Shown here piece by piece: positions 24,001-45,000 of a DNA stretch of 64,000 nt. The position numbers were made by a program, and so were the translations under genes. The notes under the pieces are model-generated. The model saw only the letters and a list, made by a program, of their open reading frames with translations. It was not told the DNA's origin and searched no databases. This DNA is from Candidatus Omnitrophota bacterium (GTDB lineage: Bacteria; Omnitrophota; Gorgyraeia; Gorgyraeales; Gorgyraeaceae), in assembly GCA_030691625.1 (NCBI GenBank), contig JAUYDX010000042.1, positions 463 to 64,462 on the forward strand, read 5' to 3'. Position 1 is the first letter of the stretch. Every line of letters begins with the position of its first letter.

Positions 24001-27000
24001 ATTAAAGCCAGGGCAGAACAAAAACAGATAGTATCAGTGGAGTCTGTACAGACAAGTATTATCGCTAAAACTTATTTAGGCATTGAGTTAAGCCCAGGGG
24101 AAGAGATATTTTTAGAAAGGTATTCAAACGATAGCCAGGTTAGATCTAAGATAGACGCAACTACATGGGGAGATATTTTTAGAAAGGTAGCTACAGGAAA
24201 GGATAGGTTAAGCCTTCAGGAATTAGGAAGAGTAGAAAAGCTAGCGTCTGATTTTGTAGATTTAGTCTATTTAAATCCAGGAGAGATTGCGAAACTGTCA
24301 GAGGGAGATTTTAATAAATGGGCTTCGTACAGAGAGATAGATATTGCTAATCCAGCTAAAGCAGCTGATCTTGTAGGGGCATATCTAACCAGAGGAGATA
24401 TTAAATCTGCCATAGAAATCGCAGAAACTACAGCAGACAGCGCTTTGAAAAATAGTTTATATGATACTATAAGTAGTAATATCATGGAATCCATTAGAAA
24501 TAGTGACATTAATGGAGCCAGGGATCTTAAGATAAAGGTCCTGACCAGTATAACCTTTGAAGCTGAGAAAGGATGGGAACAGGATCCATTGGTAACAAGA
24601 TTACAAGGATTTGACATAGACCTTGGAGAAACCTTACGAGAGGGCATAAAGACACAGACTCTTTCTGTGACAACAGATGACTCTAGAATTTGTACGGTCT
24701 CTAATTCTAAATATGGCGCAATAACAGTTAACAAACCAGGGCAGCGTTCAACCGTAAATCCAGATATTATTGAAGCGGCTCAGCCTCCAGATGCAAAAAC
24801 GAAATATAGGTATAATTATGAAACGACTGTCACAACTATAGTAAGGAATATAGCTACGGGTGAAGTAAAAGATATAAAAGAGACAGTGCTGATTGGGTCT
24901 AATAGACGCCTTACTGATGTAGCAATAGAGCAAAAAGCGAGAAACGAAGCGCCTCAGGCATTAAAATTAAGAGAAGATAATGCGAGATTGCTTGAAGCCA
25001 AAAGGTCATGGATTCATTATGAAACGCTCGGGATAACAAGAGAGATATCAGCAATCGGAAGCGCCACAGAGCGCGAGGCTATAGCTACTATAGGGATAGA
25101 TAAACTCAAGGTATTGATAGCAGAAGAAAAGAATAAGCCTGATTCGGCTCAGAAAATCTTTAATCTTATTGCTCTGCACATGGAAGAGAATGCTATAGCT
25201 TATGAGTCAAAATATGGCAAGGCATGGAAGTATCAACCAGCGCAGTATATTGACGCGATCGAGAATTTATATGCGTTAGAAAAAGGTTTTAGATCAGAAG
25301 AAGGAAAAGTCAGGGAGGCTTTTGGGTTATCCTGCGCAGGAGGCAAGACAGCTGCCCAGGCAGCAGCTATAGCCACTTTTAGCGACTTATATCCTGATGC
25401 GAAGGTAATATTTGTCACCACGTCCAAGAATATTAAATCCATGAGGGAGAATATAAGCATCGGCGACAGAGTTAATTACATAGCTGACGAGAAGATATCT
25501 CAGGTAGAAAAAGGCATAAACATAGTTAATTACAGGACCCTGCAGGAATTAGGCATTAGCCAGAAACTGAAGGGCGCGCAGATAGTAGCTGATGAAATAC
25601 AGGCAGGACTGGCTGAGTCTGACCTGGTGCGCAGTATGGGCAAGGACCTTTATAAAAAACTTCCAGTATGGGAGAGGTCCAGGATTGACAGGGAGTTGAG
25701 GCTGTATCAGGAGGTATATAATGTTGTAAGCAGTTATTTAGATGCAGTGAAATCTAAAAATCCTTATTTTGATGGAATACTACGCGATGGGCCTGAGCGA
25801 TGGACTATGGAAAAGAATAATATATTCGAGAGGTTTAAAAATACGCCTGAATGGAAAAAGATGGTTGAGAGAATGGGAGAAACAGACTTTAATGATATGG
25901 TAAACAGCGCTGCAACAGCTTATATGATAGATACAGCTAATGGAAGCGGAGGTTATTACCTGACGCTTAGAGATGGCACTTATGCTTCCACAACTGAGGT
26001 AAACGGCTTGTATAAGATAAGGGCAGGGGATGAAACAAGCGGCTATAAAGATATGGGCTACAGGTTTGTGGAGAAAAAAGATATTACAGGATACTGCGTC
26101 GCTAATAGAGAAGCGGACCCGTTGCCTAATACCAAATTTGGCGGGAACATGGATGGCAGGCCGAGCAAATTAGGCGTGATGGTTGGGATAAAGCATAATC
26201 TTGATATGGATGTTTTAAGGGATTCTTACCTGGATATTATTACAGACCGTACAAATATTATTGGAGCAATAAAACAGGCGCATAGCACGATTGTAAATAC
26301 AGGCACGCTTCAAGGGTGCGAGCCAAGCCTCAGGGGACTCGGGTTTAAAATAACATATTTTGACCAGGAAAGGACTTTGGATTATTTAAAAGAGAGTGGA
26401 AATGTTGATATAAAGGTAGTGTCTGAAAAAGGCAACAGAAGTTTAATAGATATTATAAAAAGTAAATATGCAGAGCAGGAGAGGGCCTTATTGTTAGGAG
26501 TCACTGATAATAATGTTTCTAACCTTGTAAGGCTTATTGATGAATTAAAGCCTGTAAAAGAAAATGGCAAATATTATGTAACTTTTGACGGTAAAAAAAT
26601 AGAATTGATTTTTATATTAGACGACGCTAATTATAAACGACTGGAAGACGCTATACGGACTGAAGCAGAAAGCTCAGATGGCGTGAAAAACAGGATTATT
26701 ATAGGGACTTTTGCAGAAGGCGTAAATACGTGGGCTAGTGTTAAATTAAAAGGCTCTCAGGAACCGGCTTTCAGCGGCTTTGTGATAAAGTTGAATATGT
26801 CCAGCATTGATAATGTGGCTCAGACATTCCAGCGCGTTGCGCTTACAAAAGATATGATAGAGGGAGACCAGAGGGTAGCTGGTAAGGCGCTATGGTATCT
26901 CAATACGGAGAATTTAAAACTCTCATCAGAGGAGAGGGCGATATTGCTAGAAGCGTTTAACTCTCACGATCAGAAGAAAATAGAATCCGCAGTACAATAT

Positions 27001-30000
27001 ATCGCCGAGGAAAGGCTTAGCCAGGTAAAGAGCCATAATATATTAAGGGTTCTGGAGTCGGAGAAGGCGGGGCAGACGGAGATATCCAGGAAGGTCACTG
27101 ATTTCAGGTGGGCAGATAGTTTCTCAAGGGGTATCGCGACAGGCACTAAGCTGGCTGGGGCGCTGGCTCAGCAGGGCCTTGCGAGCAGGGTAGATAAATT
27201 CAGGGAATATTTCATTCAGAAGGGTTTCATTGATGAGCATGGGAACCTTACAGTTCACGGCATGCTTTTCATAGAAGAGGTGTCAGCGTACCTGAGCCTG
27301 TCGCTTGACTTGAAAAAAATCATCAGCAAATTTATAGGTATAGAGTTATTGTCCGGTCAAGCTAAGCTTGAAGCAGGAGAACGACATAGCGACGCAGATA
27401 TTGAAAATGCTTTTAGTGTAGTAGAGGCTATGTATTTAAAAGGCGGGACAGACTTAAGTCTTTTAGGCTCCAGGCATTTTGGCATATTAGGCATAGCCAG
27501 TCTTATAAAGTTAAATAACGACCTTGGGTTAAATCCTGTTACAAAGGCATATATAGCAGGGCTTCAGAATGATGATAAAGATAAGGAGCTGGAGGCGCTG
27601 GAAGGCGTCCTTGGTAGATTAAAGACATCAGGCAACGCAAGCGAATACGGACAGTATATATCTGCGCTTCAGCGCATAATTGACACAAGGAAAGGGATTA
27701 TAAAGAAATTTGAGTCCAAGGACTCAAGGCTGACAGATATGATGAAGAATAACTATAGAGCAGCCAGGGCAATGGAAAGGTTAGAGGAGTTTAATAAGAA
27801 GGTAGGGGAATTAGGACCGAAGTTCAAAGAGGTGGGCATAACAGGAAAGATCAAGCTAGCTGTAGAGACTATCGGTATCAGGGATTTATGGAATCTCGGG
27901 CTCAGCATGGCATCTGTTCCTCTTATCATAAGCTATCAGAGGGCATCAAAGAATCTTGAGAATAAAGGCATCACAGGAAAGGAACTTGGAGAGCTTTCTG
28001 AATTGCTGAACGGCATAAATTATTTCAAGGAGGTAAAGATTTTTGAAGGAAAACGTACCCCAAAAAGGGAACGCGACCGGCTTTTTGATTTATATTTTTA
28101 TAAAGATAAAGATGGAAAGTACAAGAACCGAGGCGGCATAAATCCTTCTGCCCTGGATCCTTATGTATTATTCTTCAAGGATATGAAGCCGGATAAATAT
28201 AAGAATTTAATGAATTCCTGGGATAATTATAAATCCTTAGGATTATCCAGGGACTTTATAGAGGTAGTCAAGATGGAAAGGAATAAATTCCTGGATTATA
28301 TTGTAGGCGAGCTTAGAGGAAAAGACAATAAGGCAGTAGCCCGCGCAATAAGAGATATGGAAAGATTAACCCCTGGGCGCAATAAAGACCTTATGGCAAT
28401 AGGATGGAAGCCAGGACAGGCAGTCAATAAGGAGTCGATTGGAAAACTTGTTAGTCAGATTGCGGGGAGATTTGAGATTAAGAAAAAGGAAGATGTAGAA
28501 AACTTAATAAACAGGGCATTAGTAATCTATGCAGGACTTAGAGCAAATATCGAAGATATAGGCAATAATTATAAAAACGGCTTAAAGATATTAGGAGGGC
28601 GCCAAGTTCTGTTGCAGGTTCCAGGCGCTGATGGCAAGAAAAAAGAATTGAAAATAACTTTAAACCTGGTTGATTCTTATAGCATTAAGGTATTAGCCAA
28701 TAATGAATTTATGGATAAAGTCTTTTACATTTATAAGATGGGGAGAGAGTTAGATAAAGATGAGGATTTTGCCAAGTATTTATGCGGGGTAGAGCCGGTA
28801 AGCATGCCTCCGGAAATAGCAAGGCAGTTTGGGATGGAAGAAGGCATGCCCATGAGGGTACTTGAACTTTCCAAGCTTATAGGGATGGCGGAATTCCCTG
28901 AGACTATGGGCACATTAAAGAGCTTTATTGAAAAATTAACGCCTGAGATGTTGCCTGATGCTGATTGGAATAAGAAGAAAGATATATACAGGCAGAGGGT
29001 AAGCGCCATAGAAAAATTCCTGGATGGAGAGGGCCTCAGACCACAGGAATTACAAGCGAGAATGGTAAAGGCAATAGAGCTTTATGACGGCCTTATAGAA
29101 AGAGGAGTAGATAAAATAATAGCAAGAGAATTTTGCCTGAATGCTGAGAAATTAGAGGCGTTAAAAGAAGAGTCTAAGGGAAAAATTTTAGAAAATGCGA
29201 AGCGCTTGATAGATTTAGTTGCGGCTAAACAGGATAAAACAAAAGAGCAGGAATTGATACCCTATCTTAGTGACCTGGAAAGGCTTTCAAGGCCTGATTT
29301 TGATGCCGAGGCCTTTATAACCAGGGCAATTGAGATTATAGACATTGTAAAGGCGCACGCCCAAGCAGTTATAGACAGCGCAAAGGATAAAATAAAAGAA
29401 TTCAAAGATTATAATATAGTTATCAGGATAGAGCTTAATACAGGAAGGGCAACCATGACCAATGCCTATTCCAATGGATCAAGCAGTGATGATAATAGAT
29501 ATGTAGGCTTTGATATCAGGTTTGTCAGAGAGCTTATGGGTATCGCAGAGACAGCAGGGGCTGATTCTGAAATAATAAAGGATGAGGTACAGAGAAAGAC
29601 CAGGCATGAGTTAGGGCATCTGAATAAGAATATAAATTCATGGGACATAGCTACTTACCTGGGAGATGAGAAATGGCAATTGATAAAGGATCAAAATGGT
29701 GGATATGGAAAGGTGCAGAACTTCCTGGAAAATATATACAATGAGGTATTTGGCGTGAGTGATATAAAGATTGCCATTACAGAAGAGAATGTCAATGGCA
29801 GTTATTACTATATCTTAAAGCAGGTAAAGGGAAACGCCGGGCCAAAGGAAATGAAGACCAAGCAGGGCCTGAGGTTAGGCGGGCTCAATCTCATAGAGTA
29901 TCTGGCTAATATACAACTATACAGGGGCAATGAAAACGATACAAACGCATTTATAGAAAATATCGCCTATGCCCTGTGGTTTGATTTAAGGTACAGGCTT

Positions 30001-33000
30001 CCAGCGAGAGGAGACCTTAGAAAGCGCGCAATAGACCAGGTAAAGCAGTTGCAGGAGATTTCCTTATTAAGGTATTTCCTGCCGGCTGGTATGCGCGCCA
30101 AGTTCAATGACCTGGTGGCTGATAAGATTATCGAAATAGACAATAAGCTTGAGAGTGAAAAGGCGGAAAGGATAAGAAAGCCTCTTATGGCTCAGGAACA
30201 GGCTGTTCCTATTCAAGAGCCGGTAAATGTGTATCAGGGAATGAGTTTCTATGAATTCTTAAAAGCCCAGATAAGGGATTTGCAGGATGAGGAATATAGA
30301 AATCTTCAGGACCTGTTTGAAGGGACGCTTAGCAAACCGATCAGGGATAGGTTAATTGCTGAAGGCAGACTGGTCCAGGGCCAGCATGCGACAGCTTATC
30401 AGCTCTTAGATGGTAGATGGTTAAAGATATTTGATAATAAGAGCCCTGAGATAAATAAAAGGTCGTATCTAAGATATGAAGAAGGCAAAAGATCTTTAAC
30501 TCCGGATCAGGTCGTTCCTTACACTATAGAGAAATTCACGCTGGCTAACGGCAATATTAAATATGTACATGTCCTGCAAGAGAACTCTATTACAGCGAGA
30601 AATGAGATACAGTCTCTTATTAAGTCCCATAATGTTGAGGCGGCTGACAGGAAGATGATTAGATTGGAAGATGCCTTATGGAAATTAGGCGAAACCTGCG
30701 TATTTGATATTGAAGAGGGGTCAATATCAGTCATACTTGATAATATTTCAGGGGACGGCAAGGTTATAGATATCGCAAGCCTGAGGTTCAACAATGAAAA
30801 ACCAATAACCGAATCAGATATTCAGAGAACAATAGACAGATTGGACGCAGAATATAAAGCATTAAAAGAACAGATAGCCCCTGAAACTAAAGCTTCACCC
30901 GCGGAAACTAAACCAGCTGAACAGCCAGCGCCAGATGAGAATCTACTTGAACAGCCATTAGCAGAAGTTGCTACGCCAGAACCTGAAGCTAAGCAAGTTC
31001 CAGTATTGGTCCAGAAAGAAGACGAAGTTCTTATGAGCTTAGAAAAAGTGGTGAGAGATTTTTATAAAAGCGATAGCGTCAAAATGAAATCAATTGATGA
31101 ATTAGATGAAGCTAAATGGAACAGTATTAGGCAGGCATTGAAAACAGTTTTTAACGAGATAAATGAGTTAAACAAGCTATTGCCAAAAGCAAAACAATTT
31201 GATGAAGCAAGAGATAATATCTATCAGTACATGGTTTCATTGGCGAGCGTAGAGAATGATAGGTTAGAAAAAATTGTTAATAAAGCCAATCAGATTACTG
31301 ATCTTAAAAAGTTGCAAGCAATATTAAGCCAGGCAAATAACTTAAAAGATTTTATTGATTCTATAATAGCAGGCGGAGAAATAGGAGAAGGAAAAAGCTA
31401 TCAGCGCAGGAGAGCGGAAGGTATTATAAAAAACTTAGAATATCCAATAGGCAAAGCAGAAGGGAAGATTCGCGATGCTCTAAAGGAAGCAGATGTGTTT
31501 GAATTCATAGAAATACTTGAGTTAGGAAACGGTGTAAGTTTTGAAGAGATAGGTATATTATACAATAGGTTTATAGATGCAAAAAGGGGACTCTCTTCTA
31601 ATGGGCTAAATATTGATTTTAATACAATGCTCCAGATTGCGCATATCCCACAACTAAGCGCAGAACTTGCAGATATGCTTAGAAATATGTATGCCCAGGA
31701 TGAGTCTGGAAAGATAGGTGAAACGCCTGCCTCGCAAGCAAAGAAACCGCTTAGTTCCAATGAGGAGATGGCTGTCCAGGAAGCGATTAGAGACGCTGTA
31801 AAAGAGATAAAGACGCTTTCAGGAATAAAGGAAGCCAGGGATAGATCTATAATAGCCATAGACGCAGCAATAGCGTTAAGAGAAAAAGATTCCGGAGCGA
31901 GCGAGAGGTTATATAACCAGGCAGTCAGGGATATTATGAAGGCATTTATTGACGCACGGGGCACAAGAGGGCCTCCGTTTAATGTCACTGAAGACGAGAT
32001 ACTCCTAAGCCCGCGCATAAGCTATATACTTAACAACATGCTGTCTCTCCTAGACAAGGAAATCAAACTTAATAAAAAATACACGCCAGAAGAAATACCC
32101 GGTTTTATAGATAATACGATTGAAAAAGCAATTGAGATAGACGCAAGCGACCCAGAATACCGTAAATTCGCAAAAGAGATTATCCATGACACAAACTGGC
32201 TGAGGCAGTGGATACTTCTCAGGCGTATGGGTATAAGCTATGTTAAATTTATCAGAGGAGATGATGAGTCTAGGGAGACCATGATAGTGGGAGCTGTGGA
32301 CGGAAGCAGGGTCAATGGCATGCATTGCGCAGTTCAGGGCGCAGCGGAATTAATGAATGACGAAACGAATCATAAGTTATTACGAGAAAACCTTGCCCAG
32401 CCGCAGCTGGATTTATTTAAATCAAAACTTAATAACCAGGGCAAGGTAGCCATTGATATTATCGCGGCAGAGATTGCTAAAAGGATTATCGATGTAATTA
32501 AAAATCCAAGGGCTGAGAGAAATAAGCACGTAAAAATAAACGAATTCTTATCTAACCTGGCAAAAGGCGATATATCTTTTCTGCCTATGCACCTTGTTCT
32601 TAATGACGCTTTTGGCGTGCCTACAGTAGCCGCAAATGTGTCTCCGGATAGATTAAGCGAAACCTCAGGACTTGTGATAATGAATGTGTTAGGAGAAAAA
32701 CCAGATGGGGAACTCGCTCCTCATCATTTACCAGGAAAGGCCGGCGGGTATATAAATACCGAGACCGGTAAACCTGTAATAGTCATAAAGGTAGGCAATA
32801 AGCTATACGGCATTGAACCAGAAGAATTATCAAGGCATTTTGAACCAGTCCAGGGACTGAATATTCTGGGCCTGCCGTGGGTCATAAATAATATAAGAGG
32901 AATAATGCCGTTAACTTTGGGAATGATGAATAAGGTTAATGGCAGCGCAGAGGTTACAGTGCCATGGAAAGGGCTTATACCTTTTGATCAGATTAAATAT

Positions 33001-36000
33001 GAGCCAATAGAAAAAACAGGGCGCCTTGGAGTTAGACCTGCCAGTCTAATATCGGTCTCGCCCCCGCGAGCCGTTCCAGGCGCCCCTGTTTCTAAAAATA
33101 TCTATGCATTTTTATTCCTTGGAAGTTTTGCTTTGATGTGGTGGATAACAGGACTATCCGAAGAGACTAGATTATTTTCTAATGACTTACTGAAGCTTAG
33201 ATTATTGATAGGTACCGGCATTGCGGTATTTTTTGGAATTTTGGCAGGCGCATTAAATAAATTATTTAAATCTTCTGAAAGTATCGTTAATAAGTATAAA
33301 GTTTCTTATACTATACCAAAACTAATTACCCGTATAGGAGTTGCAGCTGTTCTAGTGGAGATAGGGTTATTCAGGAGGCATTTTTATTTTGATGGATCTG
33401 TTGAAATGTTTGGGACAGTTAATCCTAAAGCCTATTTGAATTTCTCCAAAGGTAGTTTATTATACATAATAGATCATGGTTATTTTAATGATTTTATTAT
33501 CTTTTCTTGTTATACAGCCGGAATATTCTATATAATTTTATCTACTAGAGTGCTTTCAAATATTTTTGGAGCACTGCCTTCGATTAAAGATCTTATTTAT
33601 CGTAAGTCCTATGTGCCTCTTAAAAACATATTAGATATAGAAGAATATAAATTTTTTATAAATATTGCTGGCTTCTTAGGAGCATCTTTTATGGTATTTT
33701 TCATATGGTTTACTAACATAATAGATGAGTTTACTCAACGAGGGTCTTTTCTATTTGAGCATAGCATTCATCCAGAAGGGACTTATGATCCATTTGATCT
33801 GTTAGCCTATACTTCAGGCGCTGCGCTTAGTATGCTTTTGGCAAAATGGTTATTTGGTATCAAACGCAATAATCTACCTGCTTTGACCAGTACTTCTGAA
33901 AGCGGCGTTGTTGATGCGGATAAAAAGACACAGCCTGCAGAAGCCACTGTTTCTGAAATCAGCGTTGTAGGCATTCTTCTTTCCAAGCCAAAGCTAATAG
34001 CGAGACTACTGGGCCGGCGCGAACCCTGCGGGACAGGCGCTATAGTCGGGGAGAATGACAGTTCCTTCTTTGTACTGACAAATCATCATGTGGTTAGAGG
34101 GCTTAAAAAAATAGAAATATTTATTCCTAATAAGGAACGCGAGATAGTGATTCCAGCGAGCCTTGGGGCTTATACGAGATGGGGCGATCTGGCTTTACTT
34201 AAAGTTCTGAAAAAAGATATGCCTCAGGGTACTTCTTTTAAAGTAGGCGCTTTTGCCGATCCTCAAGGTTTAAAGGTATATAAACCCCTTATTTGTCAGA
34301 TCCTTGCTCCTGATTATTATACGGGCGCGGCGCTTATTGACACAAAACTGGATAGAATTGAGGCAAGGGCTTGGGGATCATCTAATACCCTTATTATTTC
34401 ACATAAGACATGGCCTGGGGCAAGCGGCGCGCCGGTTTTAGATGAAAATGGAAACATTATGGGAATAAATAGGATAACTATTGACAGGACTTCTGAAGCA
34501 ATTCCTTTAGATACAATAATGAAATTCCTCAATAGAAATTCTGTGCCGGGCGTAAAGATAGAATCGGCATCTCCGCGAGCCGTTCCAGGCGCTCTTGCAT
34601 CTGGAGGGACGGCACTTGACGCAAAGCGGTTTATAAAAGACCTGGAGAAAATGTTTAAAAGACAAGCTAAGAATATAGGGCAAGCTGTCGTATTAATAGC
34701 GCAAATGGTTTTTATGAGCTGGGTTGCCTGGAATAAGTTAGCGCCTATTATTCAGCGCATAGATATTGAGCATACTCTTTATTTAGGCGGGCTGGTATCG
34801 TTACTGATAGGTTTAAGTCTATTACTTATAAAAGAGGTGCGCTCTTTCCTGGGGTATACAAGAGAAGAAGAATACGCTGAAGAAGAAGAGATTCAAAAGC
34901 CAAGCATTGAACCGCCTAGCGGCCCGACAACTAAGATATCTTCAGGAGAGACTATAACAGTAACAGCAGCTGCTGGGTTAGGCATAGCTGTTGCTTTATT
35001 GACTCCCGCGCTATTACCTGCTTACGCAATCGGCATATCCGCTATCTTATTTATGAAATATTACATAAATCAGCAATTTAGTTTTGGCGGAGCAGGTGCT
35101 ATTGCGCTGCCAGGGCAGATGGGATGGAAGTTGCCTGGAATTACAAAAGAGAAGCCGCAGCCAGTGGCAGAGAAGCCAGGCGGGATTATTTCAGAAGAAT
35201 CTTCTGCCAGGTCTCCTCCGATTGTTTCTACGAGAAAGATTTCCGCTATTGCCATCTCATTGGGCATATGGTCTGTGTTAGCGTATTTAGGCACAGATCT
35301 TCTGACTGATTTTATCTCATCCTCTATCCCTGTCAAAGGCGAACTTACAGATATATATCAATATATATTGGCGTTTCAGGCGGCTGTGATGCATACCGTT
35401 AATGGCCTGGTGTGGTTTTTCGGAAGCGTGGCTGTATTATTGGCGAATATAACCGTCGCAGCCCGCATGGCATTCTATTTGAGGCCTACCAAAAAATTAG
35501 CTGAAGACTGGGCATCGAAGGTCAAGGGATTTGAACTTGGGCTTGAATCATTCAGGGCGCAAAATAAGGTATCAGGATTATTGGGCGGCATAGCGCACAT
35601 ATTCGTATTTGACCTGTCAAGGACAATGTACGGCTTTGCAGGCAGGAGCTTTGATAATCTTATCAAGATATATCTGGGTATAAAGCCAAAAGAAGAAATG
35701 ACGATGTCTGAAAGGATCTTTGCGGCAAGGGGCAAATCTTATGTTGCCCAGGCGTCATTATTACCGTTATTTGGGGCAGTGGGAATAGCATGGTCCAGGA
35801 TTAAGCTTAAGATATACAGCACTGTTACGCAGGTTATATTAATCAGCGCAGGAGGATTAGTAGCCACAGGCGTTGCATGGATGATAGGCGCTGAGCCAAA
35901 TGATTCCTTATCATGGCTTAGCGCGGCATTGAACTTTAATTTATTGACGCAATCTAAGCCAGCCCTGCTCGCGGGGCTTATCCTTACCCTGCCTTTAGCC

Positions 36001-39000
36001 AAGCGCAGCAAGGTATTTAAGTGGATATCAGCTCTTATGGCAGGCGCGCTTATGATACAGGGTTACATGGGCATTGACTGGGTGAGGGCAATGCTGGATC
36101 AAGGCGCTGGGATAAGGGGAGCAATAGTCCATATCTTTTCAGGTTTGGCCATGGCGAGTTCTTATACCCTGGCAGTGGCTTTGGCAACTGAAAGGCGCGC
36201 AAAAATACTTAGCGCTGAAGCTAGGCAGAAAGGCCAGAATTCCAATATTATCCTGACGTTTTTAATCGCGTTAAAAGAGCTGTTTATATTTAAGAAGTCA
36301 ATACCTATTAATGCCAAGGGGGATGTAAAGGCCACTATATGGCGGGCAGCTTTTGGGTCTGCCATAGGCATACATACTGTCAGCCTTGAGATAGAACTGT
36401 TTAAGGCATTTGGCGAGTTTAATAGCTACCTGAGGACTCTTATACTCAAGGTGGAAAGCCAGGAAGGAGTGCTTGGTATTGGAGATAAATTGATCAGCGC
36501 TCCGCTGGAGCCATTTGGCCTGGACATTAATCAGATTACAGCTCATTTGCCAGGGACATCCGGCATGACAACAGAGGAGATCGTAAACATAAAGAAACTT
36601 GAAGATATGGCTGACAGTAAGACAAGGCAGCTTAAGTGGATGCTTGAAGACGCGAAGAAACTTGAGGATAAAAAGCTTCTTAGCGGAGAAGATGTCAGCA
36701 GATGGAGAGAATCTGTTGAGGCAGAGATCGCGCGGTTAGAGCAGGAATTAAGGCATATTGAGGAGCGGTCAAGGGGCTTATTGGCGCTAGAAGAGAAAAA
36801 ATCGTTAGAGAACAGGATTAAGGAGCTTTCAACTAAGAGGGGCGCGCTTGAGACAATCAAACTCAGGATAATAAACAATAATTTAGCAGGATATAGAGAT
36901 TTTGCCAGGGTGACATTCCAGGAGATATTGCAGGCGCAGATGAGTTATGAACAGCTCGTAAATAAGAGCCGTATGGAAAGGGCTGTGAAGCAGGAGGAGG
37001 CTATTGCGGGAGAAAGACAGAAAGAGCCAGTCCCGGCAGAAAAGAAAGAAGAGCCTGCTGTAAAGAAAATTGAGCAGGCGCCTCTTGCGGCAACAGCCGC
37101 AGGAGCTGGTTCAGGCGGAGGCGAACCTGGAGGGGAAGGCGGGCCTAAGATTGATATAGGCCAGGCAACACCGCCTGTTATGCCTACTAGTACAGCAATC
37201 AGTAGTCAGGCAGAGCGCGATCAAGATACTGAAAGACGGGTGCATGGGCCTATGGCAGAGGAAGAGATGCCGATACTTGTAGAGCAGTCACAGGTCAGGG
37301 TTCAGCCAGAAGTTAAACAGCAGATAGGAGAGGGCAGAATACCTGATGTCTCTTTAAGTGATATGCAAAAGGATATCCTAGACCTATTGCCTTCAGAATT
37401 TGCGTCGCCTTTGACCTTGATCCCGGACCAGGCAGCGAGAAGGGCGTTTGATGAGCGCCTGAGCCAGGAAAACGGGCCTCGGCAGATGGTTATTGACGGG
37501 CCTGTGGACAGGGTAACTGAGCAGTATAAAGTTAAGGTGGATGGCCTGGAAACGGCAATGGAATTCTATATGATTGATGCGGAGGCGGTGAACAGGTTCT
37601 ATGAGAATAATGCCAAGGACTTTGTTTATTTCAAGATACTTAATGAAAACGGCGATGTTATAAGGACATATAATTATAGAGATCATAAATACGAGATACT
37701 CCAGCAGAATGACTGGTTTAAGCAGGGAAGATATAAAGCGATACAGGTCATTGACGGCAAAGAAAAAGAAATACAGACAGTTAAACAGCTTGAAAGGCAG
37801 GGCAGGATATTCTGTTACGATATAACAAAGCCGTATTATAAGCCAGGCGAATCAAGGATTGATTTCAGGAGGACAACAAAGGCAGAGCTTATGGCAAAGG
37901 AGCCTGAAGCGCTTAGGGTGTTCTTTGTGCCCGGAAACCAGAAGATAGACGAGTCTAAGGCGGCTACGCTGAATGACATTATAGCGCTTGGCGCAAAAGA
38001 GATTATAGGCGGCCAGAGCGCGTACATGGCTGAACTTAAGATAGCCATGTTTGACAGGGATACAGCTCAGAACAGGGTATATATTGAGAAGCTTCTGAAC
38101 GATGATAAGGGCAGTATATTTGGAGCTGTTCCTACTGACAGCCGCATAAGGGCATTGAAGACAGATCTGGGAATAAGCATAGCCAAAGACTTTGTGCTTT
38201 CTGTCAATATAGACAGACAATACAATCTTACATGGATCTGCTACAAAGTAGTCGAAAAAGCCGGAGAGGTGGTGTATAAGACAGCAAAATGGGAAAACGG
38301 GAAATGGAAGGATACGGGTGTCCAATATAGACTTACCGATGAAAAGAAAAGAGAGGGTTATGACAATGCCGCGGATGTAGCCATAGATGACATAGAAAAG
38401 AACATGAAGGTGCTTTCTGAGGATAATATCTGGTATGATTCTGAAAAATTCGGCGGGAGAAAGGCGCTAAAGATAGTAAATGGCAATACAGGGGATGAGG
38501 TCCGCTATCATTCACAAGAATTGACCAGGCAGAAAGAAAGGATTGAAAAGCAGAAGGTGTTAGTGAACCTTATTGTAGACAGCGCGCGTTCAGGCAAGGC
38601 GATCAATGAGGCAAAACTTACATTCCTTGGCCTGAACAGGTCTCAGTGGGCCACTATTATGGACGGTCAAAGGGCAGATAGATACGCTGAGATGATGGAA
38701 GGATGGGGCGGAAATCTGGGCACAGGAGAGGTATTTAACCAGGATAAAGATATGCCTATAGGAATGGCATTGCCTTTAGAAATAGCCTCAAGGACAGGGC
38801 CTTCGCAGTTCAGGATGTTCTTTGACAGGTTTAATAACCAGATTGTTTACGGCGCAAAGGCATTCAGCTACAGGATAGCTCTTATAGATAACCTTATAGA
38901 AAATTCTAAAAAGATAGCAGATGGCGCTGAAAATGGAATGGCGATATTTACAGTGAAGTATTCAGGTCTTGATGTGGTAAAGACAGGCCAGGACGAGTTA

Positions 39001-42000
39001 AAGGCCTGGGAATCAGAGATAGTCAGGATGGTTGAAAAGGCTGGTTCGCTAGAGGCATTAAAGTATGACGAGGCATCTGACAGCTTTGAATTTGCAAGGG
39101 TCATAAAAGAAGACAATAAAGATGTGGAAAGACAGCTTAAGCTTACCAGGGTCTATGGCCTTAAAGGAGCGGAAAAGAATGTAGAAAAGATAAATGATAA
39201 ACTGATCAAGGCCAGGATGTTCAGCGAGTCGCTTAAGCTGGAAGACGGAGGCGTGATAATACAGGATATTTCAAAGACTTCTTATGAGACAAGGAAAGGC
39301 ATAGATGAGGCATTAAAATACCAGATAAAGCTTACAAGGCTTCTCGGCCTTATAGCCAATGAAGCTGAGTCAGATCCTGCAAGGGCTGTCAGGATGTACA
39401 AGATGCTTTTCTGGGGCAGGGCTGACGTGGAGCTTCCAGCCATAATAAATACATACCTTAAAGATGGAAACGGAGCAGCCCTTAAGATCTTACTGAGCAA
39501 TATACCGGAGAATTTCTCATGGAGCTATTACACCACTATTGACACTAAAAAGGTAAAGATAGGCATAGTATTCCCGCAAAAAGGCCTGGCAAGGGAGAAT
39601 GAAAAAGGCGACAGGTTCTACGGGGATCTAAGGCCTAGCCTTGAAAAGGGTTATAAGGTTTTTGATGTCTATGACCTGCCAAAGGAACAGGCCAATAGAA
39701 AACTTTTATGGACAGAATATCAGGATTCGCTTGGCAGGCGCATAGCGAAACTTAATGGCACAGAGCTTACTATCATAAAGGAATTTGTAATAGGCACCAA
39801 TATCGCCAAAAAGACTGTTACCATAGACTTTGACAGGCGCGATCCGGAGCGCAATTACCTCGCTACAACAAGAGAGCTTGAATGTCAGGATGGGATACCC
39901 GTTATAAACCCAAGAACACCGGGCAGGCTGCATTACACCAGCCACATAAGCGGCGAAGACTTTGATGTGGAAGAATACCTTGATTATAAAGGCAGGCAGG
40001 CTGAGATAGTGAGGTTCGCGGATACCGCTTCCGAGAGGATCATCAGGAATACGCTTTTTGCCCCGTATGGCGAGGATTATATTAGCCTGCAGAGCGAGAC
40101 AGAATATAATGACGCAAGCATTGTCTATATGAGGTTTAAATCTATCCTGCCGGACAAAAGCGTGCTTTACGATGTGTCTGATAATCCTGATTTTGACGCA
40201 CAAAAAGGCCATGTATGGCAGGAAAACTATAGCTCCACAGGCAGGTCTTTAAAAAGCCAGGTGATAGAATTCGCTGCCAAAAATGACATTGCGCCCAAGT
40301 CAGCGGAATTTGAGGCTGTAAAGACGCGCTTAAAGGCCAGTATCCAGACTGAGCTTAATAGAGGCGCTATCGGCAAAGACCGCAACCTCGCCATTATAAT
40401 GAAACTTGCGCCGGCCCTTAACGCAAAGATCGTATCTGAAAACGCCGCGCTTAGTCCGGAAAAAGAAAAGCTTCATACTGTATTGAAAGAAGAGGATATA
40501 GGCGATATAGACGGCTTTGTGAATTATTTATTCGACCAGGATGCTGCAAAAATTAAGGAGAGCGAGGCGAGACGGCTGTTGCATTCCAGATACGCTACTG
40601 TTGTGGCAGATCTGTACTTCAAGGCAGCGATAAGGGCAATAACAGGCCAGAGCGGAGATTATGATTATGAATCTGCGTATGTATATTATAAGCTTTTAAT
40701 AAACGGCGCGTATAGAGGCAGAGCCGAACAAAGGATTGATAGGGGCATAAGAGAGACCATAGCAGAGCTAAGAAAACTGGAAGGACTTAATAAAGATACG
40801 CCAGGGCTGCTCCAGAATAAGGCAGTGCTTTTAAATCAGCTCAGGTCCAGAATGCTCATGACCTCTCCTGAAACCATCTACTGGACTTTCTACGATCTTA
40901 TAAATGACAGGAATATGCAGATACAGTACAGCCCTGAGGATATAATCCGTTACAGGCCAGAAGGCGAAAATATGTTCTTTGAGCTGGTAAAGCTGGAAAG
41001 TTCTCAGCTAAGCCAGGACGGAATGACCATCACCTTTAATAACACGGTTTATTACGCAAGGCTGAGCCTGGAGGAAATAAGAGGGATAGCTAACGGAAAA
41101 GAAATAGCGCCAAAGACCGGAATAAGGCATGAGGTAATGACATATGATAAGAGGTCTGAGAGGATGACCAGGCAGGAGGAGACTGAGAATATAAACGGGA
41201 ATAAGATACCTACAGTGCGGCTCACTGCCTCTACAGGGCTTAAGACAGACCCGCAGTATACATTGAGCCGGGAGGACTTCACTCTCTTAACCAGGCATTA
41301 TTATATCCCTGGAACTAATATAGAGAAATCATTCGAAAAGATAAGGATCGGGCCTGACAATAAGAGGGTTGTCACAGAGCAGGGAGCTGTTGACACAGCA
41401 GGGGATATCGTGAGCCTTAATAGATCCGCTGAAATGCCTATGACAGGCATTATGATATTTGAATTCATGAAGGTGGATAAGGCGAGGTTGAAGATTGATA
41501 ACGCGGTTAAGCTTATAGAGGTCCTGGACGCAAACAATATCCCTGACGGCGCAGAGATATTATTAGAGCGGCATGTGGAATACGGAAAAACAATGGACCC
41601 TGACGGCAGTAACGCGAGGGTAAAAGAAGCTGGTTTAAAATACAAAGATAAGGAATTAAAGCCAGGCATAGACATGAGGACGTTCTGGAAATGGGAGCAG
41701 AGTAATACCAAGATGCAGCCGCTTAAAGAAGGAGAGCCAAACCAGGTAAGGTATAAGGCAAATCAGGAAGTTGTCGAGAAGGATATTCGCGAGCGTGCTG
41801 TTACAAGCGTGCCTCATAAGGTAACAGGCGATAGAACAGAGGATAAGCTTACGCGCGAAGCAGCATTCAATCAGACAAGAGACGCTTATAAAAAGGCAAG
41901 CTTCCTGAATGCAGAAGGCAGGGATTATGCAGACTGGGTGTTTAAGTTTGATATGTCGTGGAGAAATATTATCAACGCGTATCTTGATAAAGACACCTCA

Positions 42001-45000
42001 GCTAAATTCATAGAATTTGTAAAAGAAAAATTCAGGGAGAACCCTGAGGAATTCCTAAGGATATCAGCTTTTAACACATCAGGAACAGCTGTTGAATGGA
42101 AGCAGGCAAACGGGCCGAACGCTTGGGTGGTTATTGCTATAGGTCATGACATAGAGAGAAATGGGGATGCGGATGGGTCAAAGCTTAAGCTCGCAAAGGA
42201 TATAACTGACAGGCTGATTACTACAGGAACAGGATATAAAAATACGCAGGCAGACGGCACCACTATCACAGATGCCATGATAATACCGTTTGAGCGCGGG
42301 TCTAACAGGGCAGCAGTGGAGCACAACATAGATATGTACGTGATATGCAGGTATCTTGGAGCGAAATTAGGAGAAAATGGAGATGGCAAGACGTACCGTG
42401 AGTATGCCAGGAAGATAGCGAATTATTTAAGAGCGCCTGCTGAAAAAGGCGGAGCCATTGTGACCAGGGTTATTGAGGAAAACGGCAGGAAGCGCGTTGA
42501 GACATTCCTGGGCAGGGGCGTGATAGATATATATAATTTTACGAAAAACGGGGATATCTCAGGCGGCAGATTTGATGAAGCAACCAAGAAATGGTTAGAA
42601 GGGACGTTTGACTATAATGTGGCTACAGACGCGCAGGCGTGGATGGCGTCCCTGGCCCAGATTTACAAGGATGATTTCCCGAATCTTGACCCGAGGGGTT
42701 TTGTGAATTTTATTGAGAGGAACTGCGCTGTAACAGTGGATTTTAGAGGCCAAAAAGCAGGCACAGTGGATTACTTTGATTTTGTAGGAAGGATGGAGCA
42801 GATAAGGCTCCTCAATCAGAAAATAAGCGAATGGGAAGGAAGAAAAAGGGATTACTGGTTTGGTACGAATTCCGGCGCCCTCAAAGGAAAAGAACTCCTG
42901 GATGCGGAAGAGAGGTACCTGAAGACGCAAGGCGGCGAATTAGCCCCGTGGGATGTCTTCCAGTTAGAAATAGATAATGCCAAACAGGAAAGAGCCAATC
43001 TCCTTAATGCTTTCAGGCAGAATCCAGCTGCAGCAGTGGAATTTATGACGTACATGATAACAGCGTATTATCATTCTGCTGAAAGGGCAGATGAAATGGC
43101 AGAGGAAGAAAAAGACACTGAGCATAAAGGCGCGGCATATTATAGGAAACAGGCGGAATTCTACGAGAACGAGCGCAATAAATTTATTATAACTGAAAAT
43201 GGAGAAACAGGGCTGGTTTATGCCAACCAGGAAGACCTGGATAAGGACGATAGCAAGGAAAAGACTCCGGCAGTAACCATATCTGCCTCATCCACAGCAG
43301 CCGCTGCAGCGGGTAAATATATAGAGCATATAGATCCGCAGACAAAGGTTAAGAAGGTGTTCGACCCATTCAGGATACAAGGCAATAAACTAAGACAGGA
43401 AACTCCTGCAAAACCTGCTGAACCAAAGGAAGAGTCAAAAGACAAAAAAATAAGAATATCAGGCGGAGCTCCTTTAATGATGGGGATGAATCTGGCTCTC
43501 CTGGAGGATGTAAAAGATGCGTGGGAATGGGCGCGCAACAATACATTTATCGGAAAGATATTTGGAAGGGCTGTAAAGAGCGAAGAGGTTATTGTACCTG
43601 CTGTAGAAATAGGCCAGGTGCTTCCTGTGGTAAGTTATTACGGCGAGACTCTGGCGTATACATTTGACGTATCAGGAAGGATCTTGAGAGATATCCTGTT
43701 GAACAAAGATAAAGAAGAATCGCAGAGACTCCTTGATTTTATGTTCTCAAGAGAAAAAACTGAGAAGGTATCAGGGTTATGGCCAAGCGCCTTTGATATT
43801 AAATACGGCAGGATGCAGGAAAATAATGATCCTGGTGGTCCTGCGAGCTGGATGATAAGGGCCAGGATGGCTGACATAGAGGCGAATGGGGATACCGCTG
43901 GCAATCAAAAACTTTCACAGATTGTAGATTACGCTGACAGGCTTCTGAATGGCATGATGGTGAAATATGAAGTAAATGGCAAAAGATTAGGGTTCTTAGT
44001 TACAGGCCCAGGCGCCATAGGGGTTTCTAACGAACATAATATAGACCATTTTACAGTATTTGAATATTTAGGGAGAAAGATAACAGGCGCTGACGGAGAC
44101 AGATTCAGGGACGCTGTCAGGAGGCTCGGTAATTACTTTGATACGCCTGTAAGCCAGGGCGGGGCATTGAGAGAAGACGGGGTATATAAAGGGATACCCA
44201 TAAGCAGTATCTCAGATATTAATATGTTTATCAGCGGGAAAGATAATAAAGGGAATAATATTGACAGGGAAAAGCTGGTAGGTAAGGAGATATATACTGA
44301 TGTCCTGGGCTGGGGCGCTTCCATAGCAGAGCAATATTCAACTTATTTTACCAACTTAGATCCGAGAAAGCTTGTAGATTTCGCGCTTGATGCGAGGAAC
44401 GGTATATTGGTGACTGTTTCAAGAGGCACCAGGATAAATGGCATTGAACTTACCAGCGATACACAGGGTTTTGATTTTACTGATACAAGAGGCAGGGAAG
44501 GTATCAGCAGTCAGTGGAAGGTCAAGAGGGCCCCGATGATAAGCAGTGAATGGACGGTATATATGCTTAGCGCCCTGGAGTATGCTGCCAGGGCCGCAGA
44601 CAGGGCAGGGGATAATGTCAATGCCCAGAGATACCGCGCTGAAGAAACGCGCTTAAGACAGCATCTGGAAAAACTCAGGATAAAGATAGGAGACAAGGAA
44701 GGCCTTGTATACGCTACAGCGAATGATGTCCAGAAGATAAATATAGGAGGGACTGAAAATAAGACCATCCAAAACTGCGTAAATTCCATTGCCATGGCGC
44801 CTACTTCAGCTTGGGAATTATATACAAATGGCAAGGATATATTGCAAAGGATAGAGATTACAAAAGGCGCTGTCTCAAGCCTTGTAAAGACGCTCAATAC
44901 ATCTTCAAGCCCTACCAGTCTTCAAGATTTTATACTGCTTTCACAGCATGGAGACGCTTCCAGGTACCTTGATTTTACAAAGGTTACGCCAAGGCCTAAT

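What the first reader, a model, noticed from the sequence alone, without database searches (positions are those of the whole stretch)
33064..36300. Serine protease module between two polytopic membrane domains, bracketed by an exact 20-bp direct repeat encoding PRAVPGA: candidate self-processing unit
A complete S1 catalytic triad (TNHHVV / GDLALL / GASGAP) sits between a ~7-TM domain upstream and a 10-or-more-TM domain downstream. The first membrane domain plus the protease are flanked by the identical 20-nt GC-rich sequence CCGCGAGCCGTTCCAGGCGC (33064-33083 and 34573-34592), set in otherwise AT-rich codon context and encoding (S)P(P)RAVPGA. Conservation at the nucleotide level of a short peptide on both sides of a protease module is what one might expect of duplicated cleavage or recognition sites in a polyprotein. 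A recombination or duplication scar is the alternative. A membrane-embedded protease that excises pieces of a >21,000-aa precursor would explain how a protein with 8 or more separate TM clusters could be handled.
Basis: partly seen in the sequence, partly recalled or inferred. Interest (0 to 1): 0.75.

Follow-up and report, generated by a model that had tools for sequence, protein, structure and literature searches.

The report
Membrane-tethered protease cassette in giant gene
Inside a single gene of more than 21,000 codons sits a 503-codon module (six membrane helices plus an intact HtrA-type serine protease) whose two ends carry the same 20 DNA letters; the repeat is real, but it looks more like the DNA seam left when the module was spliced in than like a conserved pair of protease cutting sites.

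Summary
The whole 64-kb window is one open frame. CCGCGAGCCGTTCCAGGCGC occurs exactly twice, in frame, 1,509 nt apart, encoding PRAVPGA. Between the copies lie a six-helix membrane domain and a PDZ-less HtrA-type S1 protease with an aligned His/Asp/Ser triad. About 12 hydrophobic segments follow.

The self-processing reading is neither shown nor excluded. Both copies sit in linkers at module boundaries, probably on the same (cytoplasmic) membrane face as the protease.

Several points argue against a conserved cleavage motif:
- The motif occurs nowhere else in 21,333 aa.
- It is absent from every detectable homologue. All of these are distant, and none is orthologous at the junctions.
- The two copies match at all synonymous positions, including a rare CGA Arg codon (2% of Arg codons). 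That points to recent DNA-level duplication, not peptide selection.
- Sequence around the copies is unrelated beyond about 10 nt.
- The bracketed segment has the lowest GC3 in the window.
- Each module (TM1, protease, TM2) has free-standing relatives in ordinary-sized proteins.

My best reading (confidence about 0.45) is a recombination or insertion junction around an acquired anchor-plus-protease cassette. Autoprocessing at PRAVPGA is a live rival (about 0.2). Protease-driven cleavage of giant Omnitrophota-type proteins has already been proposed in the literature, for other peptidase families.

The parts
1..64000 (+). One uninterrupted reading frame (frame 1), 21,333 codons, open at both window ends: part of a giant gene
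   Evidence: No stops in + frame 0, against 660-1,940 stops in the other five frames. There are 48 hydrophobic segments in about 10 clusters.
33064..33083 (+). Direct repeat copy 1, CCG CGA GCC GTT CCA GGC GC = PRAVPGA (aa 11022-11028), 8 residues before the first helix of TM1
33106..33843 (+). TM1: six-helix membrane domain (aa 11036-11281). It is an orphan family with one known relative (P0004, a free-standing 493-aa protein). It has the lowest GC3 in the window.
   Evidence: Hydropathy and positive-inside analysis. The AF2 model shows six long helices but pLDDT is 41, so the fold is unusable. P0004 matches at 32% identity, E 2e-11. No Pfam family matches. GC3 is 0.24, z = -5.9 against the expectation from amino-acid content.
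33952..34572 (+). PDZ-less HtrA-type (S1, PA clan) serine protease domain, aa 11318-11524
   Evidence: Pfam Trypsin_2, E 3e-12. Best PDB sequence hits are HtrA/DegP-like, E 3e-6. AF2 mean pLDDT is 76, with the core above 90. Foldseek top hits are HtrA, HTRA1, DegS and DegQ, E 5e-12.
34087..34089 (+). Catalytic His11363 (TNHHV)
   Evidence: His in 61/62 sequences at this column of alignment A3; aligns with the DegP His.
34186..34188 (+). Catalytic Asp11396 (GDLALL)
   Evidence: Asp in 61/62 sequences; aligns with the DegP Asp.
34423..34425 (+). Catalytic Ser11475 (GASGAP), codon AGC
   Evidence: Ser in 62/62 sequences; aligns with the GNSGG motif of HtrA.
34525..34560 (+). Subfamily-specific C-terminal tail FLNRNSVPGVKI, which ends the protease homology
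   Evidence: Shared with P0002, P0003, P0005, P0010 and P0018; sequences diverge right after it.
34573..34592 (+). Direct repeat copy 2 = PRAVPGA (aa 11525-11531), in a low-confidence linker 13-19 residues after the protease C-terminal helix
   Evidence: Corresponds to model residues 226-232, where pLDDT is about 50-68.
34675..36291 (+). TM2: about 12 hydrophobic segments (aa 11559-12097). The core from aa 11731 onward is homologous to P0001, P0020 and P0037.
   Evidence: P0001 aligns to aa 11731-12353, E 4e-70. P0001 is a gene fragment open at both ends of a 1.7-kb contig.

Best explanation
The 1,509-bp unit is an in-frame cassette of two modules: a six-helix membrane anchor and a PDZ-less HtrA-type serine protease. 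It was joined into the giant gene at an inter-domain linker. The identical 20-nt sequences at its two ends are a DNA-level junction duplication, that is, one short sequence present on both sides of the joined segment. A target-site-like duplication or a single crossover in a short shared sequence would produce this. They are not an evolutionarily maintained pair of cleavage motifs.

Because the cassette adds an even number of helices, it does not flip the topology of the downstream membrane domain. The protease keeps a complete triad and is probably active. It is held at the membrane, most likely on the cytoplasmic face, between the two membrane domains. Its substrates are unknown.

Shown: the repeat, the frame, the domain identities, the triad, the module boundaries, and the absence of the motif elsewhere. 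Inferred: insertion or recombination as the origin, the topology, and protease activity.
For: (1) The copies are identical at all synonymous positions, including the rare CGA codon. The probability of identical codons given the same peptide is 7e-4, and control 7-aa repeats do differ at synonymous sites. (2) Protein sequence around the two copies is unrelated (flank-only z = 0.3). True diverged domain repeats in the same gene give z = 12-18. (3) The bracketed DNA has the lowest GC3 of all 200-codon windows: 0.225-0.24 against a mean of 0.44 and sd of 0.066. Against the expectation from amino-acid content, z = -6.1, while both flanks are normal at -1.5 and -0.7. (4) Each module has free-standing relatives. 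P0004 (TM1) is a complete 493-aa gene. P0002 and P0003 (protease) are ordinary genes in ordinary neighbourhoods. TM2 relatives P0037 and P0020 have no protease upstream. No protein among 1.84 billion representatives combines TM1 with the protease. (5) Repeat copy 2 starts exactly where protease homology ends, and copy 1 sits just before the first TM1 helix. (6) The motif is absent from the rest of the 21,333 aa and from all 150 homologues.
Against: No orthologue or strain variant with an empty site could be found, so insertion is not demonstrated. The GC3 boundaries are fuzzy and do not map sharply onto the repeats. The cassette's overall codon likelihood under gene-wide usage is unremarkable, rank 254 of 834. 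No transposase, integrase or terminal inverted repeats are present, and 20 bp is long for a classical target-site duplication. The immediate flanks show weak extra similarity: 6/9 nt upstream with a one-codon gap and 6/10 nt downstream, empirical p about 0.004, post hoc. If that similarity reflects homology, the duplication would be older and the 20-nt core would be under constraint. That would fit a functional element better than a neutral scar.
Confidence: 0.45

Rival explanations
1. Self-processing unit. The tethered protease cuts the giant polypeptide at or next to PRAVPGA on both sides. This releases a 503-aa anchor-plus-protease protein and separates the upstream part from the TM2 part.
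For: The triad is intact and the HtrA fold is predicted with confidence. Both copies lie in linkers at module boundaries. Copy 2 is in a flexible segment 13-19 residues past the C-terminal helix. Six helices and K/R-rich flanks place both copies and the protease on one face. The 7 identical residues are about the length of a protease recognition site, and the flanks share S-x-S-P ... A-x-x-S. Precedents exist. MarP has four N-terminal helices plus a chymotrypsin-fold protease with reported autocleavage (PMC4992679). HtrA2 loses its anchor-bearing first 133 residues on maturation, exposing AVPS (PMC8850690). Autoproteolysis of giant Omnitrophota proteins has been proposed for C39 and S8 domains (bioRxiv 10.1101/2023.11.21.568195).
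Against: There are only two copies in 21,333 aa. The motif is absent from all homologues of the protease subfamily, which diverge right after the VPG[VL][KR]I tail. DNA-level identity shows recency, not selection on the peptide. From general knowledge, HtrA-type enzymes prefer small aliphatic P1 residues with loose specificity, and Pro would occupy P1' if the cut followed Val. No biochemical data exist.
Confidence: 0.2
2. The two 20-mers act at the DNA level. Recombination between them, either site-specific or by slippage between direct repeats, removes or restores the 1,509-bp cassette in frame, so that cells vary in whether the giant protein carries the protease.
For: The repeats are direct, exact and in frame, and the spacing is a multiple of three, so deletion would leave an intact ORF with one PRAVPGA. 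The core has 0/20 mismatches while the adjacent, possibly homologous flanks have about 7/19. If the flanks are homologous, this implies constraint on synonymous sites as well.
Against: No recombinase lies in or near the cassette within the 64 kb, and Pfam finds only Trypsin_2, RelA_SpoT and PRK. There are no inverted-repeat or att-like features. The 20-mer has no other copy in the window, and its 32 hits in other genomes are chance matches in genomes of 59-76% GC. No read-level or strain data are available.
Confidence: 0.07
3. Coincidence or artefact. Either two similar linkers happen to use the same codons, or an assembler wrongly inserted a foreign fragment at a shared 20-mer.
For: Repeated 7-aa peptides occur by chance at about this frequency in a protein this long; two other isolated examples exist. 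Twenty nucleotides equals the k-1 overlap of a k=21 de Bruijn graph (general knowledge).
Against: About 0.003 exact 20-nt pairs are expected, and the probability of identical codons is 7e-4, including a 2% codon. An artefactual insert would itself need the 20-mer at both ends, in frame, with 496 stop-free codons, and would have to begin and end exactly at domain boundaries.
Confidence: 0.04

Closest known systems
HtrA/DegP/DegS family (MEROPS S1C; Pfam Trypsin_2)
   Same: It has the chymotrypsin double-barrel fold, the His-Asp-Ser order and a TNxHV / DLAhh / GxSGG-like motif set. The best sequence and fold matches are HtrA, HTRA1, DegS and DegQ. Like DegS and HtrA2, it is membrane-tethered (PMC8850690).
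   Different: There is no PDZ domain. Scores are far below the NCBIfam family cut-offs, 33 against 416 bits. The motif is GASGAP instead of GNSGG. A subfamily-specific C-terminal tail FLxxxxVPG[VL][KR]I is present. The anchor has six helices and more membrane domain follows. The predicted location is cytoplasmic rather than periplasmic (inference).
MarP (Rv3671c) of mycobacteria
   Same: A polytopic N-terminal anchor (four helices) is followed by a PDZ-less chymotrypsin-fold protease, and autocleavage of the protease domain is reported (PMC4992679). The MarP model gives a weak hit, E 5e-6.
   Different: The score is 25.8 bits against a cut-off of 250, so this is not a member. MarP is a 397-aa stand-alone periplasmic enzyme. 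Here the unit is internal to a protein of more than 21,000 aa, and its anchor is an unrelated orphan six-helix domain.
Viral polyprotein main proteases flanked by membrane domains (nidovirus nsp4-3CLpro-nsp6; general knowledge)
   Same: A chymotrypsin-fold protease sits between two polytopic membrane domains inside a very long precursor. This is the arrangement the self-processing hypothesis would mirror.
   Different: In viruses the cleavage motif recurs at many junctions and is conserved among relatives. Here the motif occurs only twice, brackets anchor plus protease rather than the protease alone, and is not conserved. No cleavage has been shown.
Giant membrane-associated proteins of Omnitrophota with internal peptidase domains (West-Roberts et al. 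2023, bioRxiv 10.1101/2023.11.21.568195; 2026 preprint 10.64898/2026.06.07.730766)
   Same: The ORF exceeds 20,000 codons, has many transmembrane clusters, is mostly unannotatable, and carries scattered enzyme domains. Autoproteolysis into several products has already been proposed.
   Different: Those proposals rest on C39 and S8 domains. An S1/HtrA-type domain is not mentioned in either main text. SecA_DEAD, C39 and dockerin domains are not in this window. The organism of origin could not be established.

Membership tests
Peptidase S1 / Pfam Trypsin_2 (PF13365) | Score above the Pfam gathering threshold | tested here: met
   47.8 bits against 27.6, covering profile positions 1-144 of 144; 46.2 bits in the 5,000-aa scan.
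Peptidase S1 / Pfam Trypsin_2 (PF13365) | Catalytic His, Asp, Ser in that order at the family's columns | tested here: met
   His11363, Asp11396 and Ser11475. Conserved in 61/62, 61/62 and 62/62 sequences of alignment A3. They align with the DegP triad.
Peptidase S1 / Pfam Trypsin_2 (PF13365) | Two-beta-barrel chymotrypsin fold | tested here: met
   AF2 pTM is 0.75 with core pLDDT of 87-97. There are 823 PDB matches at E <= 0.001, led by HtrA-family protease domains.
HtrA/DegP 'Do' family (S1C) | One or two C-terminal PDZ domains | tested here: not met
   No PDZ hit in aa 10834-12500 at E <= 1. The protease is followed by a 27-residue linker and then transmembrane helices.
HtrA/DegP 'Do' family (S1C) | NCBIfam TIGR02037 / NF047968 score at or above the curated cut-off | tested here: not met
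   33.3 against 416 bits, and 29.6 against 470 bits.
HtrA/DegP 'Do' family (S1C) | Periplasmic or extracytoplasmic location | tested here: inconclusive
   Positive-inside counts (16 K/R against 8) and the K/R-rich segment before helix 11559 suggest the cytoplasmic face. No dedicated topology predictor was available.
MarP family | NCBIfam NF033740 score at or above cut-off; four-helix anchor plus C-terminal protease as a stand-alone protein | tested here: not met
   25.8 against 250 bits. The anchor has six helices and the unit is internal to a giant ORF.
Polyprotein autoprocessing protease (viral 3C-like type) | Protease bracketed by membrane domains within a long precursor | tested here: met
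Polyprotein autoprocessing protease (viral 3C-like type) | Recognition motif recurring at several junctions and conserved among relatives | tested here: not met
   Two copies only in 21,333 aa. Absent from 150 homologues.
Polyprotein autoprocessing protease (viral 3C-like type) | Demonstrated cleavage at the motif | not testable with these tools
   Needs expression with a Ser11475Ala control, or native proteomics.
Transposable or integrative element insertion | Direct repeats flanking the inserted DNA | tested here: met
   Exact 20 nt at both ends.
Transposable or integrative element insertion | Transposase or integrase gene, terminal inverted repeats or att-like structure | tested here: not met
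   The insert is entirely TM1 plus protease ORF. There are no significant inverted repeats at its ends.
Transposable or integrative element insertion | Empty site with a single copy of the repeat in a relative | not testable with these tools
   No orthologue of the junctions exists in any collection searched.
Omnitrophota-type giant membrane proteins | ORF of tens of thousands of codons with many transmembrane clusters | tested here: met
   More than 21,333 codons and 48 hydrophobic segments.
Omnitrophota-type giant membrane proteins | SecA_DEAD, C39 or dockerin domains; Omnitrophota origin | tested here: inconclusive
   None of these domains is in the window, but the gene extends beyond both ends. 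The source genome was not found.

The most novel reading that the evidence does not exclude
The giant protein is a bacterial polyprotein with a virus-like processing core. A chymotrypsin-fold protease held between two polytopic membrane domains cuts itself out at the two PRAVPGA linkers. This would give the first defined cleavage sites for a giant bacterial gene product. The exact DNA duplication would then record the recent creation of the second site.
Probability: 0.13. Interest if true: 0.8.

Novelty: new variant of a known kind. Interest (0 to 1): 0.4.

Why it matters
Whether bacterial proteins of tens of thousands of residues work as single chains or are cut into pieces is an open question. 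It has been raised explicitly for Omnitrophota giant genes, and no cleavage site is known. This locus offers one concrete, cheap test: two identical candidate sites, a defined catalytic serine, and a predicted 503-aa product. If the repeats are instead a recombination seam, they are a rare direct trace of how such genes grow, namely by in-frame addition of topology-neutral membrane-plus-enzyme cassettes at linkers. Either result would be useful. On present evidence, though, it is a divergent HtrA-like domain in an unusual fusion with a short repeat of unproven function.

Tried and rejected
1. I tested whether the region upstream of copy 1 is a degenerate second protease tail (IPFDQI vs IPLDTI, LPGKAGG vs WPGASGA). 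The local alignment is not better than shuffles, z = -1.0.

2. I tested whether TM1 is VanZ-like, a resemblance I recalled from memory (E..Q ... G..D..D...x..G). There is no Pfam hit even at E <= 10, and the AF2 model is too poor (pLDDT 41) for a fold search. The idea is not supported.

3. I looked for a shared RNA hairpin at the two copies. The folds differ, and z-scores are -1.9 and -0.6.

4. I looked for terminal inverted repeats or mobile-element hallmarks and found none.

5. I asked whether the 20-mer is a dispersed genomic element. The 32 single hits in GTDB representative genomes all lie in genomes of 59-76% GC and in nonsense frames, so they are chance matches.

6. I searched for orthologues or strain variants with three word-indexed protein searches, one exhaustive phmmer run, two metagenome scans, one genome scan and one viral scan. 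Only distant single-module relatives turned up.

7. I looked for C-terminal sorting-signal (exosortase-type) or defence-system assignments. NCBIfam and PADLOC give only weak generic protease hits.

8. I tested foreign origin by overall codon likelihood. The cassette is not an outlier, rank 254 of 834; only the GC3 (T/A-ending) shift is extreme.

9. I compared the upstream flank and TM2 with PDB sequences and found nothing.

10. The resemblance of AVPG to the AVPS tetrapeptide of HtrA2 is a four-letter similarity only. I treat it as coincidence.

Full report
**Observation**

The whole 64,000-nt window is one open reading frame on the + strand. It has 21,333 codons and no stop, while the other five frames have 660-1,940 stops. 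The finding therefore lies deep inside a giant gene that runs off both ends of the window.

The 20-mer CCGCGAGCCGTTCCAGGCGC occurs at 33064-33083 and 34573-34592 and nowhere else, even with three mismatches allowed. No shuffle produced a match, and about 0.003 exact pairs of this length are expected. Both copies begin at codon position 1 and encode PRAVPGA, at aa 11022 and 11525, spaced 503 codons apart.

Apart from one other pair at 24103/24170, exact repeats of 20 nt or more in the window all lie inside diverged protein-repeat arrays.

**What lies between and around the copies**

- **Anchor (TM1).** Hydropathy gives six helices between aa 11036 and 11281. A low-confidence AF2 model also shows six long helices.
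- **Protease.** After a linker of about 25 residues comes a Trypsin_2 domain. Its score is 47.8 bits against a cut-off of 27.6, over the full profile length.
  - The nearest solved relatives by sequence are HtrA/DegP-like enzymes, E 3e-6, with His, Asp and Ser aligned.
  - An AF2 model built on 62 homologues has pTM 0.75 and core pLDDT of 87-97.
  - Its best PDB fold matches are HtrA, HTRA1, DegS and DegQ protease domains, E about 5e-12.
  - The triad is His11363, Asp11396 and Ser11475 (AGC, 34423-34425). These are conserved in 61/62, 61/62 and 62/62 aligned sequences.
  - There is no PDZ domain. NCBIfam scores for the Do, HtrA, MarP and DegS models are 10-30 times below their cut-offs.
  - I therefore describe it as a divergent, PDZ-less member of the S1/PA clan nearest to S1C. 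It is not a member of any named family.
- **Downstream domain (TM2).** After copy 2 and a K/R-rich 27-residue segment there are about 12 hydrophobic segments, aa 11559-12097.
- **Topology.** Positive-inside counts (16 K/R against 8) and the basic segment before helix 11559 place copy 1, the protease and copy 2 on the same, probably cytoplasmic, face. This is an inference.

**Relatives**

A word-indexed search of 5.8 billion proteins found nothing. An exhaustive phmmer search of 1.84 billion representatives found 285 hits at E <= 0.001. All are relatives of a single module.

- **TM2 and the sequence beyond.** P0001 aligns to aa 11731-12353 at 29% identity, E 4e-70. It is a gene fragment open at both ends of a 1.7-kb MAG contig, so a related large gene exists.
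- **Protease.** P0002, P0003, P0005, P0010 and P0018 match the protease at about 29-32% identity by BLASTP. P0002 and P0003 are ordinary-sized genes in ordinary neighbourhoods.
- **TM1.** P0004 is a complete 493-aa stand-alone gene with no Pfam family. A profile search found no further TM1 relative.
- **TM2 only.** P0037 and P0020 carry a TM2-like domain with no protease upstream.
- No protein combines TM1 with the protease.
- The protease subfamily shares the C-terminal tail FLxxxxVP[GN][VIL][KRQ][IV]. Immediately after it the sequences diverge, and none contains RAVPG.
- Protease homology ends at aa 11523-11526, exactly where copy 2 begins.

Two metagenome scans, one genome scan and one viral scan found no orthologue that covers either junction. 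The genome scan's 32 hits to the 20-mer are chance matches in genomes of 59-76% GC.

**What the repeat itself says**

At the peptide level a repeated 7-mer in a protein this long is near chance expectation. TKDGKTI is another isolated example whose flanks are unrelated, and YDLKALA is a third repeated 7-mer that lies inside a diverged domain repeat.

What sets PRAVPGA apart is its DNA.

- All six complete codons are identical. They include CGA, used for only 19 of 1,044 arginines. The probability of identical codons given the same peptide is 7e-4. The control repeats differ at synonymous sites.
- Protein sequence around the two copies is unrelated. Flank-only alignment gives z = 0.3, against z = 12-18 for real diverged domain repeats in this gene.
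- This pattern of exact DNA identity over a short stretch with unrelated surroundings is what a recent short DNA duplication leaves. It is not what long-term selection on a peptide leaves.
- A caveat applies. The 9-10 nt on each side are more alike than random in-frame pairs (6/9 nt with a one-codon gap, and 6/10 nt; empirical p about 0.004, scheme chosen post hoc). If this reflects homology, the duplication is older and the core is constrained even at synonymous sites.

**Composition**

The bracketed segment contains the lowest-GC3 200-codon windows of the whole 64 kb, at 0.225-0.24 against a mean of 0.44 and sd of 0.066.

| Segment | GC3 z against expectation from amino-acid content |
|---|---|
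| TM1 | -5.9 |
| Protease | -2.7 |
| Whole cassette | -6.1 |
| Upstream flank | -1.5 |
| Downstream flank | -0.7 |

Other transmembrane clusters of the gene have GC3 of 0.32-0.64, so this is not a general membrane-domain effect.

Two caveats limit this line of evidence. The boundaries are not sharp. A general codon-likelihood measure does not single the cassette out, rank 254 of 834. The compositional evidence for separate origin is therefore suggestive only.

**Interpretation**

The best-supported reading is that anchor plus protease form a cassette joined in frame into the giant gene at a linker, and that the 20-nt repeat is the junction duplication. An even number of helices makes such an insertion topologically neutral for everything downstream.

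I cannot name the mechanism. There is no recombinase and there are no inverted repeats, and 20 bp is long for a classical target-site duplication. I could not find an empty site.

The self-processing idea remains possible. The geometry is compatible with it. Tethered PDZ-less S1 proteases with autocleavage are known (MarP, PMC4992679). HtrA2 is matured by loss of its anchor-bearing N-terminus (PMC8850690). Autoproteolysis of giant Omnitrophota proteins has been suggested for C39 and S8 domains (bioRxiv 10.1101/2023.11.21.568195).

Nothing positive points to PRAVPGA as a substrate, however. The absence of further copies argues against a protease that dissects the precursor at this motif. A DNA-level role for the repeats, meaning in-frame excision of the cassette, is conceivable but has no direct support. 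No shared RNA structure exists at the two copies.

**Verdict**

The object is a new architectural variant of a known kind: an HtrA-like protease inside a giant membrane protein. Its short exact flanking repeat is most simply explained as a recombination seam.

I could not verify the taxon. Assignment to Omnitrophota rests only on analogy with published giant genes.

Noticed in passing
window 60097-63927: The last ~1,300 codons of the window carry a RelA_SpoT (p)ppGpp-synthetase-like domain (PF04607, E 6e-17, about nt 60622-61005). It is preceded by a weak HD_4 match (about 60097-60426) and followed by a phosphoribulokinase/uridine-kinase-like match (E 1e-4, about 63691-63927). These are cytoplasmic nucleotide-signalling enzymes fused into the giant protein. 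Apart from Trypsin_2, they are the only above-threshold Pfam domains in 21,333 aa (sub-threshold hits such as Spo0A_C, DUF4329 and HD_4 aside).
   Followed up: partly
window 24103-24122 and 24170-24189: This is a second isolated exact 20-nt direct repeat, GAGATATTTTTAGAAAGGTA. Its spacing is 67 nt, not a multiple of three, so the same DNA is translated in two different frames (EIFLERY and GDIFRKV). About 0.003 chance pairs of this length are expected. It remains unexplained.
   Followed up: partly
window ~4000-14100 and ~21100-22000: These are long, diverged in-frame protein-repeat arrays. Recurrent spacings are 549, 609, 306, 870 and 1,884 nt in the first region and 234 nt in the second, with exact shared stretches up to 74 nt. 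Tandem Repeats Finder reports nothing at score >= 80.
   Followed up: partly
window 57589-58521 (aa 19197 and 19501): YDLKALA is repeated 304 aa apart inside a clearly homologous pair of domains (flank-only alignment z = 17.6). The copies differ at synonymous sites, as expected for an old duplication. This made a useful contrast to the PRAVPGA pair.
   Followed up: yes
window 33952-34560; proteins P0002, P0003, P0005, P0010, P0018: This is a small, apparently undescribed subfamily of PDZ-less Trypsin_2 proteases. It is marked by GASG/GSSG at the catalytic serine and a conserved C-terminal tail FLxxxxVP[GN][VIL][KRQ][IV]. The members are embedded in varied multidomain proteins of 358-1,404 aa.
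   Followed up: partly
window 33106-33843; L034 31-1512 (P0004): The six-helix TM1 domain has conserved motifs IIDHxxFNDFIIF and DEFxQxGS...[YF]DPxD[LF]xAYTxG. It has exactly one detectable relative among 1.84 billion representative proteins, a stand-alone 493-aa gene, and no Pfam family.
   Followed up: partly
L033 1-1702 (GCA_038078975.1, contig JBBTME010000354.1): This 1.7-kb contig is one open frame from end to end. It aligns to aa 11731-12353 of the window protein at 29% identity, E 4e-70. It is evidently a fragment of a related very large gene in a fragmented MAG.
   Followed up: partly
window 17759-17774 and 19265-19280: This is an isolated in-frame exact 16-mer (TGKFE). Its spacing of 1,506 nt is close to the 1,509 nt of the PRAVPGA pair, and its flanks are unrelated (z = 0.3). 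About 0.7 such pairs are expected by chance, so it is probably coincidence.
   Followed up: yes
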